Shown here piece after piece: positions 6,146-53,861 of a stretch of DNA of 64,000 nt; the stretch's first letter is position 1; each line of letters opens with the position of its first letter. A program made the position numbers and the translations under genes. The notes beneath the pieces were generated by a model that did no database searches, was not told the DNA's origin, and saw nothing but the letters and a program-made list of their open reading frames with translations. The DNA is from Octopus vulgaris (taxonomy: Eukaryota), in assembly GCA_951406725.2 (NCBI GenBank), contig OX597821.1, positions 21,948,001 to 22,012,000 on the forward strand, read 5' to 3'.

Positions 6146-6151
<6 letters not shown>

Positions 6152-6957
6152 TGAGCTTTTTTAGAAATTTCACTTCCAGTGAATAAAAGCATGTATAAAA
6201 GTCAATAGACAACATATTCTTAATATAAAATAGTGTACATTTAAACTCAAGAGAAAACTGCCTTCAGCAGGCAGTTTTTACACGCTAGAAGAAGTAGTCA
6301 AACCGACAAAAACTACATTTAAGAGCAATCTTCAAAAGAATGAAAAATAAAAACTTTTACCTCGTTATTTTATTCCGGTCATCCGAGGTTTCTAATTTTT
6401 TTTAGGAAATGGAATAATCTGATAGGCGAATTTTTCATCAGTGACCGCGCCATAACACTAACATATAATTAAGAGACAATTTACTCGGGTCGCTTCTTTA
6501 TACATAATATTTTTTCAAATTCACCGCGCAAGCGCAGTTTTATTCGGCAGTAAATGATTAACTGCCGAATAAATCTTTAAAAATTGCTAAAAACATATAC
6601 GTAAAATATATAGAGTAATGAGTAGTTAATCACTTACTGCCGAATGAAACTGCGCTTGTGCGGTGAATTTGAAAAATTATAATGTATAACGAAGACACAC
6701 GTCTTAATCGTCTTTTAATTATATGTTAGTGTTATGGCGCGGTCACTGATGAAAAATTCGCCAAGCAAATTATTCCATTTCTTAAAAAAAATTAGAAACC
6801 TCAGATGACCGGAATAAAATAACAAGGTAAAAGTTTTTATTTTTCATTCTTTTGAAGATTGCTCTTAAATGTGGTTTTGGTCATTTTGACTGCTTCTTCT
6901 AGCGTGTAAAAACTGCCTGTTGAAGGCAGTTTTCTCTTGTGTTTAAATGCACACTAT

Positions 6958-7099: not shown

Positions 7100-8340
7100 A
7101 AATATCATTCAATAAACACAATATATATTTTTTTATGAGCAACTATTAGATTTTAATGATGAATCCAGCTCAGACGGCATTCTTTAACACGTCTAGTACA
7201 TTAGTGCAATCCTCAGATTGAGCCCAAATAGCATATCAAGCTAAAAATAGAACGATAGGGTGAGGGCAAAAAACTAGAATAGGCAAGAAGTGGGTAGATA
7301 TAAATGGTGGGAGGTTGAAAAGCCGGATATTGAAAAAGAAAATCGAAAAAAGCAAGAACAGTTAGAATGAGACCGTAAAGTCATATGGATGAAAGTATAG
7401 TGGTCTAGCGTCTGCGGTACAACATCCTAATCCGGAGAGAGTGATACTTTCTAATTCGCCGATAGGAACTTAATCATAGGTTTACAACCGCCGAAAATTT
7501 CAGGTCTGGAACTTAGCAGTGCGGTAGAGCTCATAGATCTGAAAAGGATCTGTGTACGAAAACTTACATTCTTTTTTATCCGTTGACATATGGTGTGGTC
7601 TTTTCAACTATTTCCACTTTACTCTATATGGTATGGCGTTAGACTTCAAATCCCATACGTCTCTAACCAACTTAATGGCTTTACTCATGTTCCTGTGTCG
7701 GAAGGAAAATATGTAGTTAGCATAGCGATTTTTGAAGTCGTTTTCACATAGCTCAATGTAGGCCTTCTTTTCGGTTGTTATCACCATGCGTTGCTGTAAC
7801 GTCTGCTACCCATATGAGACATGTTCCTAAGTTTCGACAGTTACAACTGGGAGTAGGCTCTAGGTATGTTTGCGTGTAATGATGCTGTTCAGCCTGGCGC
7901 AACGGCTATGTGATAATTTAACAGAGCGCTCTTAGAATATATTTCTGTACCCGCGATTTTCAGGAAAATGTTTGTCTAAAAGAGACAGGAATGTTTTACC
8001 TCTAAAAGAGACAGGAATCTTTTATCTCTGTTGATTTTAACACTAAGGGAAAAAGTGAGGTCAACCAAATTATTTATTTTGGTCTATTTTAAGCTTTATC
8101 ATTATCATTCGTCTAATTATAAGAGGAGTTGTATTTTAATACGTCCTTAGGCTAGAGCATTGTTGTAGTGAGTGCTGCCTCCTCGAAAATTTCTTTAGAG
8201 AAAGAGAGGTTGGATACTCTGTTAGTAACAGACCTAGACTCCACCTCTTATAAACATAACCATGGGCCCAACGAGAAACTTTCCTGTATGCACAAACAAT
8301 CTTGCCATCCCGCCTCATAGTAGTTAAAAGCTAGATAGCT
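7100..8340 (-). mobile_element. Penelope-like element remnant (RT thumb, Cys-rich linker, GIY-YIG, 3' UTR), Neptune-like
   Basis: Minus-strand peptides NRVSNLSFSKEIFEEAA, GKTFLSLLDKHFP, CNCR, KAYIELCENDFKNRYANY.FSFRH, VWDLK..Y.VKWK; many stops. Confidence 0.85.
7168..7223 (-). ncRNA. Degenerate type I hammerhead ribozyme in the PLE 3' UTR
   Basis: gctca(at)CTGAGGA-ttgcac taat gtac-TAGAC-gtgtt aaag aatgc c-GTC-tgagc; stem I gctca/tgagc; GAAA is mutated. Confidence 0.55.
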
Positions 8341-11990: not shown

Positions 11991-14222
11991 CTTAACTCAA
12001 TGTATACTGGTTGTTGGTTGGAGTTATTTCCCCTTTGTTTATACAAAAAAAATGTTCATGAGTTGGAGTAAGGTAAGTGGTCAATGACTGAGTTTTTGTA
12101 TGGCTCTGTGAGTAAACATGGATTCACGTGCACGATCTTCGTACAGCGCTGAAGGAACCACGAAGTTAAGAAGGAATATCTTAGAGTAACGCAAAACTCG
12201 GAAGAAAAATAAAGAGTACATTTGCTCATGGTCATTCAGTTGGTTTGTGTTGTAATGATTCTGTTTTTTCGGCAAACATTTATTGAGATGGAAACACTGG
12301 TTACAATTTCCAGAGTAACATTCTCAGTCCACAAATGTGCTGCAGTTATGCAGTATGACATACTTTACAACTCTGCTATCCATTATCTTCCTTGTTTTCT
12401 ACAATTTCTTTTGTACTTTAAATAGTTCAATAATCTTCTGCTTAATGCCGAGTGTAGTGGTATGATCTTTAAAATTATAGATGTAATTCAATAGTTTTGT
12501 TGCATTCCTCTCAACTATATTTCTGGAAAGAAGTGTACTTTAAAATTGGTGTCTGAATTTATCTTCACAGTAGATATATAGTATTTATGTACTATATTTA
12601 GATTTCAGTTGATGAAGGTGTCTTGTGCCTCGCAAAAGATCGCTTCAGCGTTGTACGGGTATCATGCACTTGTATTTCTCTCCTCTGCGTGCAGTTAACT
12701 TCAATTAATGTTAATGATATACATATTAAGTTTTTCATATTAGTAATACAAGTGTACCTTTTGTTTTAGATATTTTCTATGAATAATATTCGGTATCGGT
12801 GATTAATAACAATATTAAACTTAATATTTAAGGAAGATGTGTTGAACCGATAATATTACAGTGTCCTTTCCTAATATTTGATTATGGGTTTAGTAAACAA
12901 GTAATAATGTGATCTTGTCTCTGAATCCGCTGCTTCGAGTATTTTATTGTGACAGCGAGCCGTATCATCGAAGATACCACCATTCAATGGTACGCTAATG
13001 ATTTTCTACTCATATTATTAATCAAGGTTTTTTTAGAAAATTATGTACCAGTTGTAGGAATCTGTATTAATATATATATGAATGTTCTATTAGATTTATT
13101 ATGTGGTTTATATTTGACTGTCTAAGCTGGTGGTAACATCCTGTTATGGAAAATATTTAGGTTAGTGGTGACAATTATTTATAATCCGAAATTATTGAAA
13201 ATATTAATTAAGAGTTTTCTAAACGTATTTAATATATATCCATTGTATACTGGCTATATCCAACCCATCGTTACGATATATCCCTCTATCTATTGCACTG
13301 AGTTTCTTATTGAGTGCGTCTATGATATTCAGATCGACGGAATAACGTATCACTGAACCCCATATTGAAGAAGCAAGAAACCAGTGGCTCTGAATGTTTG
13401 TAATCTAGATAGAAAGTTTGTTGAAGAACAAAGTTTTTCTAGTATACCTAAAAATATCTATTACACATCTATATTGCTAAATATTTTAATGAATTCTAAA
13501 GCTCTTATCAATAGTGGTTTCCAAATAGGAGGAAAATTTCAGTAATTTAATCATGTTTATTATTAATATCATTTACCCAACTAATGATTGTACTACTATA
13601 ATTATATTGCTGTTGGTTGGTTACTTTTCTAATCTTGCTGCTAGTATTGATTAAGATTTTCATAGCAATTAATCCGGTCTTTGTTTTTGCGAGAGTGATT
13701 GATCTGGGTATATGATTAGAGGCAAAATTCTTCTTATGTTACTTAAACGTGACGTGTGATTCTCATTTAACTAAGCGATCTAATCTACAGTTTATTTGAA
13801 GTTTGTGATCTCTATCTTACACGTTAGCATTTATACTATTGCAAGCGTGTGCACCAGTGCACACTTTTTATACTTACAGTAACATTTACAGTGTTTTTTT
13901 TTAGTTTTTAGTTTTCATATACGGGGCAATTTCCTTATTTATTAGATAAGTATAAGTACTTGTAAAGTATCATCTTATGTTAATCTGATCTACGGCACTT
14001 GAGATACCCAATATAGCATTAAACAACACGCTTTTTATTGCTATCTGTCGGTGTCTTTACATAAGTAACAATCTCTCACTTTTATCAACTAAAAGCTTAA
14101 GTCATAAAGATTTTTAGTTTTATCTAAGAATATCAATGTTTTTATTAGGTGTATTATTTGTAATGTACTTGAAAATGAGATTTAACTTTGGTTTGGAAGT
14201 TATTGATGTACTTCCGGAAATT

Positions 14223-18677: not shown

Positions 18678-18719
<42 letters not shown>

Positions 18720-18752
18720 AAGTAGATAGAATGATGGATAGATAAGCAGTTA

Positions 18753-18796
<44 letters not shown>

Positions 18797-19119
18797 CTAA
18801 CTGCTTATCTATCCACCATTCTATCTACTTGACTATTTGTCAATTTAGCATATTGTCCTTCTATGCAATCACAAACAGCTGATTAATTCTTCTAGGTGCA
18901 ACATACCTGTACTAACTATCTATTGATCCATCCCATTATCAGTCGATCCCTCAGTATCTTTCTACCTCTATCTTATCATATATAATTTATCAATATAATT
19001 AATCTATCCGTCGATCTCTTTATCTATCTATTGCTATTCTGATATATGCCTATCTATTCAATTACTTTCTTACATACCACGACTAATCATTTCTCCTACT
19101 CACCGCATCCTTCAGCCGA

Positions 19120-30447: not shown

Positions 30448-30635
30448 GTGACATTTTTTCGGACGTAACATTGCCGTTAGGACAGCAGAGATAATAGGTA
30501 AACTATCCATACAAGGCGAAAAAGTTGTCAACAAACAGCAATGGCTGTTTGTTGACAACATTTTTCGCCTTGTATGGGTAGTTTACCTATTATTTCTGCT
30601 ATTCTAACAGCAATGTTACGTTCGAAAAATATCAC
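30448..30635. repeat. ~92 bp-arm palindrome with 4-nt spacer
   Basis: ...gttgtcaacaaacagc-aatg-gctgtttgttgacaac... Confidence 0.9.
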
Positions 30636-39734: not shown

Positions 39735-40895
<1,161 letters not shown>

Positions 40896-41854: not shown

Positions 41855-42475
41855 CTTCTTCATCTTGGGGTCGTTGGTATCTTTGAGTGGCACATCGGGC
41901 AATCAGTGATCGCCAATTATCTCCGTCTCTGGCCAACCGGTATGGTGTGTAGGTCTTCCTTCAAGGTACTACGCCTTGTCTTCCTGGCCGAGCACTTTTT
42001 CTCTTACCTTCCAGCGGCATCCATCCCATCGCTGTTTTGACAAGCATCTCCTCTTGCAATCTTAGTATTTGTCCAGGTATTTTCATTCGTGGTTCAGTTA
42101 CAGCTGCTTGCAGGGGCCTTAATCTTGCTACTTGGAGTACGACTTCATTTGTTACTATGTCTCGATAAGTGATTCTGAGGCACCGCTGATGATATACGTC
42201 GAATGTAATGCTAGTTGGGAAGCAAGTAGAAAGCGAACCAGTGAAAGTTGGACAAGAATCAGTTGAAGAAGTTACAAGCTTCACATATCTGGGAAGCAGA
42301 GGGACAAGCAACGGTGATGTAGAGAGAGATGTAAACTTCAGAACTTGCAAGGCAGCGGCAGTATTTAGGAGACTGGCAACACCTTGGTGTAGCGATAACA
42401 TATGTATAGAACTGAAGATTCGTCTGTACAAAATAGTAATACTGCCAATAGCGATCAATGTAGATCAGACCTGGA

Positions 42476-42478: not shown

Positions 42479-42522
<44 letters not shown>

Positions 42523-42530
<8 letters not shown>

Positions 42531-43348
42531 ATGTTACATTACTCGGTAGTCAAGATAAAACTCTGAGTTTCAGATGCCGAAGTGGAAATCCACAACACCA
42601 TCTCTTCGGTTATCTGGCTATTTGAAATGGTTATGAAAAAATACCGTTAAATAAAGGGAAATTACTATGTTATAACTCTGCTTGCCTGCGTACTTATACA
42701 TCGCTCGCATTTTTCGTCATAAAAATTATATAAAAATACATAAAAAATATATAAAAATATATAAAAATATATAAATTCTTCTTGGGACATAGAGATAAAG
42801 GTGTCGATTATAACATACAATGGAAGATTTTGGCTAGATATAAGCCCTATACTAACGGCAGCGGAAGGTGCGGTCTATGCGACATGGAGAGATGGCTTAT
42901 CTGGAAAAGCAGCTTAGACCCTACCACATGTCTAAATACAAGGACAGAGCTTTTCGGATCATGCCCACATGTGACTAAATTTCTGTTACGTTTTTGGTCC
43001 TCTAAAGAGAACAGATAGAACATGCTTTCTATGTTATGTCCCAAGAAGAATTTATATATTTTTATGCATTTTTATATAATTTTTATGACGAAAAATGCGA
43101 GCGATGTATAAGTACGCAGGCAAGCAGAGTTATAACAGAGTAATTTCCCTTTATTTAACGGTATTTTTTCATAACGTTTTCAAATAGCCAGATAACCGAA
43201 GAGATGGTGTTGTGGATTTCCACTTCGGCATCTGAAACTCAGAGTTTTATCTTGACTACAGAGTAATGTAACATATTGTATAGATAAATTTCCTCTATTT
43301 ACATAATATTGAGGTCTCTTTCTTTCTTTTGTTATCTTACCGTTTTAT

Positions 43349-43352
<4 letters not shown>
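42523..43352 (+). mobile_element. PLE 3' fragment (GIY-YIG C-terminus plus hammerhead tail) with an inverted copy of its tail at the 5' side
   Basis: DKGVDYNIQWKILARYKPYTNGSGRCGLCDME...LNTRTELFGSCPH..KFLL; arms 42523-42791 and 43035-43282. Confidence 0.88.
43191..43251 (+). ncRNA. Type I hammerhead-like motif (C4 variant); mirror copy on the minus strand at about 42553-42614
   Basis: gataa-CCGAAGA-gatg...catc-t-GAAAC-tcaga-GTT-ttatc. Confidence 0.55.
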
Positions 43353-43400
<48 letters not shown>

Positions 43401-43406
<6 letters not shown>

Positions 43407-43559
43407 GAAAGAAGGTTTGAAAATGCAATTTAAAAGATGTGTATTTACTTTACCGGTTTCACTCTTTGGAAAAAGATTGTCAAAGATTTCCAAAGAGTGA
43501 AACCGGTAAAGTAAATACACATCTTTTAAATTGCATTTTCAAACCTTCTTTCGTATATA
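43401..43559. mobile_element. Head-to-head palindromic PLE-type tail (~72 bp arms)
   Basis: Apparently perfect arms with a 14-nt spacer; each contains GAAAC-CG-GTA. Confidence 0.8.
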
Positions 43560-43595
43560 ATTCCACTCGTGCGGTACCCCACAACTCCACTTTGT

Positions 43596-43652
<57 letters not shown>

Positions 43653-53589: not shown

Positions 53590-53800
53590 TATGTTTGTGT
53601 GTCTGTGTTTGTCCCCCTAGCATTGCTTGACAACCGATGCTGGTGTGTTTATGTCCCTGTTACTTAGCGGTTTGGCAAAAGAGACCGATATAATAAGTAC
53701 TGGGCTTACAAAGAATAAGTCTCGCGGTTGAGTTGCTCGATTAAAGGCTGTGCCCCAGCATGGCCGCAGTCAAAACGGTAAGATAACAAAAGAAAGAAAG
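53590..53800 (+). mobile_element. SINE family B, 3' half
   Basis: ccctagcattgcttgacaaccgatgctggtg...cagcatggccgcagtc. Confidence 0.85.
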
Positions 53801-53861
53801 AGACCTCAATATTATGTAAATAGAGGAAATTTATCTGTAAAATAATGTGACAATTATTCAA

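What the first reader, a model, noticed from the sequence alone, without database searches (positions are those of the whole stretch)
42523..43352. PLE 3' end capped by an inverted copy of its own hammerhead tail, linking the palindromes to PLEs
Seen: a GIY-YIG C-terminal coding fragment (42792-43018) is followed by a tail with a hammerhead-like motif (43191-43251) and preceded by the reverse complement of the same tail. Both 3' ends point outward into (TA)n, and one arm is ~70 bp longer. Established: PLEs are known to produce inverted terminal segments. Inference: both ends of a break in a TA array were primed on element RNA and the two cDNAs were joined centrally. This ties the ORF-less palindromes in this window to PLE retrotransposition.
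Basis: partly seen in the sequence, partly recalled or inferred. Interest (0 to 1): 0.7.

Follow-up and report, generated by a model that had tools for sequence, protein, structure and literature searches.

The report
Head-to-head Penelope insertion, two fixed ends
This 825-base stretch is two cut-short, back-to-back tail ends of a young and abundant Penelope-type jumping gene sitting in a TA repeat, a known layout; the simple pairs of this family that were counted all have one long and one short end, which likely means that the two sides of a DNA break were primed from two different fixed sites on the element's RNA.

Summary
Observation confirmed. 42527-43351 is a 5'-truncated copy of a young 2.58-kb Penelope-like element (intact 708-aa RT+GIY-YIG ORFs elsewhere; Hydra-clade motifs), joined head-to-head to an inverted copy of its own 3' end between TA arrays. 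The layout (inverted pLTR, one-sided tail, TA target) is published, and this scan has noted it many times on other DNA of this genome. Added here, for an autonomous family: 51 of 51 outward-facing end pairs on contig C1 join one long and one short end (65-73 nt apart; 48% expected if independent). Arms share source variants (182 shared, 7 discordant at common sites). Either arm can be the longer (19 vs 22). The central joint is variable, with microhomology or inserted bases. 27 of 128 arm 5' ends fall within 33 nt just upstream of the hammerhead-like motif, and 26 of 64 pairs are ORF-less palindromes. Best model: twin priming of a double-strand break from two fixed RNA start sites (about 0.65); fold-back plus later deletion is not excluded. 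Three other window palindromes have similar anatomy, but no parent ORF was found and one breaks the rule. Not a MITE; an artefact is very unlikely. New member of a known kind.

The parts
42479..42526 (.). left (TA)n flank (target array)
   Evidence: sequence
42527..42791 (-). inverted arm: 3' UTR/pLTR of the element, ending at the SHORT end (element positions about 2314-2571 of a 2579-nt unit)
42554..42614 (-). hammerhead-like motif, mirror copy
42789..42793 (.). central head-to-head joint (1-nt overlap by BLAST); not seen in the 29 other top-scoring copies, 27 of which run on into upstream ORF sequence
42791..43018 (+). C-terminal 74 codons and stop of the PLE ORF (endonuclease end with CxxC..E and N..CxH motifs)
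43019..43278 (+). 3' UTR/pLTR of the direct arm; 43035-43278 is mirrored by the inverted arm
43160..43192 (+). window equivalent of the family-wide hot spot of arm 5' ends (candidate RNA 5' end or transcription start; inferred)
   Evidence: 27 of 128 arm 5' ends at element positions 2453-2485, none at 2391-2452
43191..43251 (+). type-I hammerhead-like motif, non-canonical core, palindromic helix III
   Evidence: no Rfam hit
43279..43351 (+). 73-nt 'tail' between the short and the LONG end; in tandem copies it continues into the 5' leader of the next ORF
43352..43405 (.). right (TA)n flank, shared with the neighbouring palindrome at 43406

Best explanation
The stretch is a single insertion of a Hydra-type Penelope-like retrotransposon: two 5'-truncated 3' ends joined head-to-head in a TA array, one ending at the family's short end and one at its long end, likely made by priming both ends of a double-strand break on the element RNA. 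Inferred steps: the RT-endonuclease, probably a dimer, cuts both strands of (TA)n. One 3' end starts cDNA at the short site and the other at the long site 65-73 nt downstream, each helped by 2-4 nt of TA-like complementarity. Both copy RNA from one source, most simply the same molecule, with the downstream-primed RT displacing the first cDNA. Each stops independently or runs off a common RNA 5' end just upstream of the hammerhead-like motif, which gives ORF-less palindromes. The two cDNA ends are then joined by microhomology-mediated end joining and second strands are filled in.
For: Parent element: tandem unit of 2579 nt with intact 708-aa ORFs. Exact motif counts in G000: 3705 hammerhead 30-mers, 1277 long ends, 989 short ends, 150 tandem read-throughs; reversed-pattern controls 0. 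End rule, unselected test: among the first 100 long and 65 short ends on C1, 51 of 51 outward-facing neighbours within 15 kb are mixed; none is long/long or short/short; 48% mixed expected if independent. Of 20 inverted loci picked on the hammerhead 30-mer only, 19 are simple long/short pairs; the 20th (L049) is such a pair plus a third piece. Either arm reaches further 5' (short 19, long 22, within 30 nt 23, of 64), and in 5 of 64 the arms share no template, so simple fold-back cannot make at least 19. Same source: over 48 loci and 26,710 aligned nt, 93 arm differences (0.35%), 182 shared non-reference variants (23 private), 7 differences at common polymorphic sites; within-locus distance below the median to other arms in 30, equal in 15, above in 3. 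Joint: 27 of 41 insertion-free joints overlap by 2 nt or more vs 18% null; 23 of 64 carry inserted bases, several copied from nearby. Near-equal 5' ends among long arms 6 of 34 vs 1.5 permuted, p 0.003. In vitro precedent: a Poseidon PLE cuts and extends both strands, starts RT at two adjacent internal sites that bound the tail, and is predicted to be a dimer (PMC11167929).
Against: All evidence is from finished genomic products; no intermediate was seen. Fold-back followed by lopsided deletion of the palindrome centre, or gene conversion between arms, could give the same-source signal and symmetric arm lengths. PMC11167929 reports no strand preference for either start site and start sites not homologous to the cut DNA, whereas here both sites have short TA-like matches and the pairing is strict. 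8 of 20 re-fetched 'single' hits have no inverted partner, and 3 are complex. The window's family-C palindrome (40410-40890) has two long ends. BLAST end extension inflates some joint overlaps. 38 of the 64 loci (L131-L168) were picked for having both end motifs, so they do not test the end rule.
Confidence: 0.65

Rival explanations
1. Fold-back (self-priming): one cDNA is primed at the long site, its 3' end snaps back and is copied back to the short site; unequal arms arise later by deletion across the unstable palindrome centre. A self-priming model on an antisense template was proposed in PMC3846280.
For: Arms come from one source. 23 of 64 pairs have 5' ends within 30 nt of each other. It explains one-long/one-short without two RT start sites. 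Passages.
Against: It predicts that the long-ended arm always reaches further 5'; it does not in 19 of 64, by up to 2.9 kb, and 5 pairs share no template. Loci with no arm differences are already strongly lopsided (L161: 0 of 1399 nt differ, short arm 801 nt longer), so deletion would have to be immediate and large.
Confidence: 0.2
2. Twin priming on two RNA copies (two molecules from one source, two units of a concatemer, or a hammerhead-made circle read round by both RTs) instead of one linear RNA read twice.
For: Both arms can be multi-unit (L031/L032: about four units facing two; further arrays). A 2578-nt contig, one unit long and circularly permuted, lies in run X20, which is only guessed to be RNA.
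Against: Two equivalent templates do not by themselves explain the strict long/short pairing. The sharp 5'-end peak and the near-equal 5' coordinates (centred on 0, not on +68) point to a shared linear end. The hammerhead core is non-canonical. Tandem DNA gives the same unit-length contig.
Confidence: 0.12
3. A MITE or other fixed-terminus DNA element with terminal inverted repeats.
For: The outer ends are fixed and inverted; TA flanks would hide a TA target duplication.
Against: The two ends differ by a 73-nt tail; the interior is a variable 5' truncation of an RT-encoding element; this joint is absent from the other 29 top copies; pair lengths run from 136 nt to 13.8 kb.
Confidence: 0.01
4. 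Assembly fold-back artefact.
For: No read or contig across this joint could be shown (uninformative).
Against: The arms differ by 5 substitutions and a 21-nt indel; the inverted arm ends at the family's biological short end; the same rule holds at dozens of other loci.
Confidence: 0.02

Closest known systems
Hydra clade of C-terminal EN+ Penelope-like elements (Craig et al. 2021, PMC8557442)
   Same: Under 3 kb, single ORF, RWK and DKT motifs, CxCx5C linker, CxxC and CxH around the conserved E and N, hammerhead in the pLTR, (TA)n target.
   Different: The hammerhead core is non-canonical in the young copies. No tree against reference Hydra proteins was built. Mollusca is listed there as a host phylum, but the passages read do not describe this family.
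Inverted-pLTR insertions with a one-sided tail (Pen2a_Av etc., PMC3846280; Fig. 2 legend of PMC8557442; opposite-strand hammerhead pairs 100-700 bp apart in PMC4209133)
   Same: Inverted 5'-truncated copy at the 5' end, head-to-head, tail on one end only.
   Different: The tail is 65-73 nt, not 30-40. Those papers call the tail optional or often one-sided; here it is on exactly one end in every simple pair counted.
Poseidon_Ac in vitro system (Frangieh et al. 2024, PMC11167929)
   Same: Two adjacent internal RT start sites bounding the tail; AT-rich target; both strands cut and extended; hammerhead cleavage not needed.
   Different: There the sites lie in the ORF start and show no strand preference; here they lie in the 5' leader, about 170 and 105 nt before the ATG, have short TA-like matches, and are used one per end.
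L1 twin priming (recalled, from no call)
   Same: Second target strand primes a second cDNA; inverted piece joined by microhomology.
   Different: In L1 the two pieces copy different, non-overlapping RNA parts from a variable internal site; here both starts are fixed and the arms usually copy the same RNA stretch.

Membership tests
EN+ Penelope-like element | single ORF with RT and C-terminal GIY-YIG endonuclease | tested here: met
   708-aa ORF with YKDD and YVG motifs; weak Pfam GIY-YIG hit at residues 603-632 (E 0.014, below cut-off); 840 homologues at E<=1e-20, many carrying PF26215 or PF28514; window fragment 97% identical
EN+ Penelope-like element | partial tandems (pLTR), 5' truncation, inverted 5' copy, tail | tested here: met
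EN+ Penelope-like element | target-site duplication | not testable with these tools
   both flanks are (TA)n; no relative's genome or empty site is held
Hydra clade | RWK and DKT motifs in the N-terminal part | tested here: met
   RWK at 37, DKT at 114; in 92 and 112 of 120 homologues; criteria from PMC8557442 section 11
Hydra clade | CxCx5C linker in place of CX2-5CxxC; CxxC and CxH flanking the conserved E and N | tested here: met
   CxCx5C at 557, no CX2-5CxxC, CxxC..E at 660, N..CxH at 682; 118-119 of 120 homologues share them
Hydra clade | length under 3 kb and (TA)n target | tested here: met
   unit 2579 nt; both ends in TA in 61 of 64 pairs
Hydra clade | canonical hammerhead ribozyme | tested here: inconclusive
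   three helices and palindromic helix III present, but core CCGAAGA and an extra U; 2 of 12 aligned copies read CTGAAGA; no Rfam hit; cleavage untested
Hydra clade | placement in the RT phylogeny with reference Hydra proteins | not tested
   no named reference proteins were fetched
MITE / TIR DNA element | fixed equal termini and a constant interior | tested here: not met
Non-LTR retrozyme | short non-coding tandem unit with a hammerhead in each repeat | tested here: not met
   the tandem unit is 2.58 kb and coding; definition from bioRxiv 10.64898/2026.07.22.740005

The most novel reading that the evidence does not exclude
Penelope-like elements insert as palindromes by design: an asymmetric RT-endonuclease dimer loads one RNA so that each end of a double-strand break is obliged to use a different one of two start sites, the trailing RT displaces the leading cDNA, and the many ORF-less hammerhead palindromes are 'strong-stop' products of both RTs running off the RNA 5' end about 100 and 170 nt away. 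This young, intact Hydra-clade family is a ready substrate to show it.
Probability: 0.35. Interest if true: 0.65.

Novelty: new member of a known kind. Interest (0 to 1): 0.4.

Why it matters
The single locus is ordinary. How PLEs make tandem/inverted structures and their one-sided tail is named as an open question in PMC8557442 (section 15). The family-wide counts turn it into sharp predictions (one start site per break end, same template, run-off at a fixed 5' end) that a purified-protein assay with two marked RNAs can decide, and the family offers intact ORFs from a clade for which no biochemical study turned up in the searches made. It also gives a concrete origin for thousands of short TA-flanked palindromes that could be mistaken for MITEs or assembly errors.

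Tried and rejected
Read support for the joint: contigs of 4 DNA runs laid on 42527-43034 skip 42727-42777 as repeat and none bridges the joint; uninformative. Expression: no RNA holder listed; contigs of 4 runs only guessed to be RNA cover most of the unit but cannot show strand, start or level. Parent ORFs for the other window palindromes: none within 1.5 kb in 60 loci by tblastn apart from the window's own neighbours; a profile of 60 homologues over 14 loci of 9.5 kb hit only L172 and L183; the L172 ORF is an old decayed copy, 71-77% to its relatives, beside a young B copy, so treated as chance adjacency; a search for B tails running on into G/C-containing sequence found 0; family E loci gave no ORF hit and no ARAGORN tRNA in 10 of 10. 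A family-profile search of the genome and a gapped two-end pattern for a genome-wide long/long count were not available, so the end rule rests on contig C1. My first clade guess (Nematis, recalled) was dropped after the motif test. A second peak of 5' ends at the predicted hammerhead cut (8 of 128 within 2537-2556) cannot be told from the general skew to short arms. Dropped before the 64-locus count: L031/L032 (multi-unit), L049, L112, L113, L117, L135, L139 (three or more pieces or interrupted), L118 (script found no pair; short/long by eye) and the 8 single-arm loci. One 'common-site' difference in the window copy (position 2446) is an alignment artefact.

Full report
Observation. The sequence shows (TA)n at 42479-42526, an arm at 42527-42791 that is the reverse complement of 43035-43278 (229 nt at 97% plus 31 nt at 100%, with a 21-nt length difference in an A/T repeat), a unique core, a 73-nt extension at 43279-43351 and (TA)n at 43352-43405. 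The core is the last 74 codons of a PLE ORF (97% by tblastn). A loose hammerhead descriptor run over the whole window hits only 43191-43251 and its mirror; the core reads CCGAAGA with an extra U before GAAA, Rfam gives no hit and the fold alone is not unusual.

Parent element. The direct arm has 1741 first-look candidates in the window's genome G000; the 40 scored are 95-100% identical. All 30 fetched top copies reach the same long end, 29 followed by TA-type repeats and one (L024) running on into the next unit; 27 of the 29 non-window copies run on 5' into ORF sequence, so the window's joint is its own. Tandem arrays give a 2579-nt unit with intact 708-aa ORFs. The tail continues in tandems into the 5' leader of the next ORF (150 exact read-throughs). 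The protein has RWK, DKT, CxCx5C, CxxC..E and N..CxH motifs and lacks CX2-5CxxC, as do most of 120 homologues. These are the Hydra-clade criteria of PMC8557442 (section 11 read). No tree was built.

Layout across the family. A 30-mer in the hammerhead has 3705 exact hits. The first 100, on C1, form 66 clusters: 25 head-to-head, 1 inward-facing, 2 tandem only, 38 single. Of 20 singles re-fetched, 9 are short/long pairs whose partner lacks the exact 30-mer, 3 are complex and 8 are lone arms, 7 long and 1 short. Long ends number 1277 and short ends 989; the short end has two sub-sites 4 nt apart (33 and 67 of the 100 listed, my count). Among the first 100 long and 65 short ends on C1, all 51 outward-facing neighbours within 15 kb are mixed; none is long/long or short/short, against 48% mixed if ends were independent. 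Of 20 inverted loci chosen on the 30-mer alone, 19 are simple long/short pairs and one is such a pair plus a third piece. Both ends lie in TA in 61 of 64 pairs.

Inside the pairs (64 two-piece loci, 38 of them picked for holding both end motifs; dropped rows listed under Tried and rejected). The short-ended arm reaches more than 30 nt further 5' in 19, the long-ended arm in 22, and 23 are within 30 nt. In 5 the long arm is tail only and shares no template with the other arm. Among 34 pairs with both arms reaching beyond position 2400, 6 have near-equal 5' ends against 1.5 by permutation (p 0.003). 27 of 128 arm 5' ends fall at 2453-2485, just upstream of hammerhead helix I, and none at 2391-2452; 26 of 64 pairs contain no ORF sequence (my count from the table), so this family itself makes ORF-less palindromes. 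Joints: 27 of 41 without insertion overlap by 2 nt or more against 18% expected (BLAST extension inflates a few), and 23 of 64 carry inserted bases, several copied from nearby sequence. Arms of one locus come from one source: 182 shared non-reference variants, 93 differences in 26,710 nt, 7 at common polymorphic sites, over 48 loci. The window copy is among the older ones (5 substitutions in 192 nt).

Mechanism. Shown: two fixed ends used once each, variable microhomology joint, common source, TA target. Published (PMC11167929, parts 1-2 of 4 read): a Poseidon PLE protein cuts and extends both strands, starts RT at two adjacent internal sites that bound the genomic tail, is predicted to dimerise and does not need hammerhead cleavage. 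Inferred: both ends of one break are primed, one per site, most simply on one RNA with strand displacement, and the cDNA ends are joined by microhomology-mediated repair; the 5'-end peak is run-off at the RNA start. Fold-back self-priming (PMC3846280, passages read) cannot make the 19 pairs with a longer short-ended arm unless large deletions follow at once, which I cannot exclude. Multi-unit arms on both sides and a unit-length contig in a run guessed to be RNA keep a concatemer or circle open as template.

The other palindromes of the window. They share no sequence with this element and belong to other high-copy families. B (43406-43600): 10 of 10 head-to-head partners among 20 long-ended copies end about 41 nt short. 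C (40410-40890): canonical hammerhead by eye; of 15 loci with an inverted partner among 20, 13 (two of them duplicates of each other) end 83 nt short, 1 is cut off and 1, the window's own, has two long ends. D (6146-6957): hammerhead with long helix II by eye, 77-nt tail, 5 clean short/long pairs among 19 loci, the rest single or complex. E (30455-30629) belongs to a roughly 300-nt tandem unit with a tRNA-like head by eye, head-to-head in 4 of 12 other loci. No parent ORF was linked to any of them.

What is known. Inverted 5'-truncated copies, a tail often at one end only and TA bias are described in PMC8557442 (passages and sections 11, 15, 20 read) and PMC3846280; opposite-strand hammerhead pairs in PMC4209133 (part 1 of 4 read). 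bioRxiv 10.64898/2026.07.22.740005 (part 1 of 5 read) covers retrozymes. I found no statement of a strict one-long/one-short rule or of twin priming for PLEs in searches; older reviews and supplements were not seen. Earlier notes of this scan report the same layout at many places in this genome, one with two fixed start points for a non-coding repeat; none matched this family's sequence. One note calls the genome an octopus; not tested here.

Verdict. Real, not a MITE, very unlikely an artefact; a new family of a known clade showing a known layout. The value lies in the counts, which make an open mechanistic question testable with an intact element. Interest 0.4.

Noticed in passing
window 43406-43600: Palindrome of a young family (2360 candidates) with a 41-nt tail and a hammerhead-like motif of altered core (by eye); longer copies extend over 1.5 kb of non-coding, CA-rich sequence; shares its TA flank with the finding.
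   Followed up: partly
window 40410-40890: 481-nt palindrome of a young AT-rich family with a canonical hammerhead; this copy has two long ends, the only clear exception among 15 inverted loci; possibly later palindrome correction. Unexplained.
   Followed up: partly
window 6146-6957: Older (about 85%) family with a hammerhead of long helix II and a 77-nt tail; no parent ORF found.
   Followed up: partly
window 30455-30629; L189, L192, L194, L195, L197: Part of a roughly 300-nt unit with a tRNA-like head (A and B boxes by eye; ARAGORN negative) that forms partial tandems and head-to-head pairs with unequal ends: a candidate PLE-mobilised tRNA-headed element.
   Followed up: partly
window 53772-53852 (-): Lone 81-nt piece of this family's tail region, 95% identical, not in a TA array.
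   Followed up: no
window 7463-8000 (-) and 12682-13244 (-): Old decayed fragments of related PLE endonuclease and RT genes (about 29-40% protein identity).
   Followed up: no
window 41961-42470: Decayed coding-like sequence left of the TA array that resembles a LINE RT C-terminus (recalled resemblance; no Pfam hit).
   Followed up: no
window 18717-18833: Small 38-nt inverted pair separated by a TA array, one arm running on into unique sequence.
   Followed up: no
L031/L032 (G000:C1:57.208-57.223 Mb); also C3:37.23 Mb, C11:13.70 Mb: Head-to-head arrays of several full units (units 99.4-100% alike in L031/L032), with intact ORFs in L031: candidate source loci.
   Followed up: partly
L032:4510-6780, run X20: A 2578-nt contig, one unit long and circularly permuted, in a run guessed to be RNA; fits a tandem or circular template but equally tandem DNA.
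   Followed up: no
window 43270-43310 equivalent: The short end lies on the 5' side of a predicted stem-loop at the start of the tail (no shuffle control).
   Followed up: no
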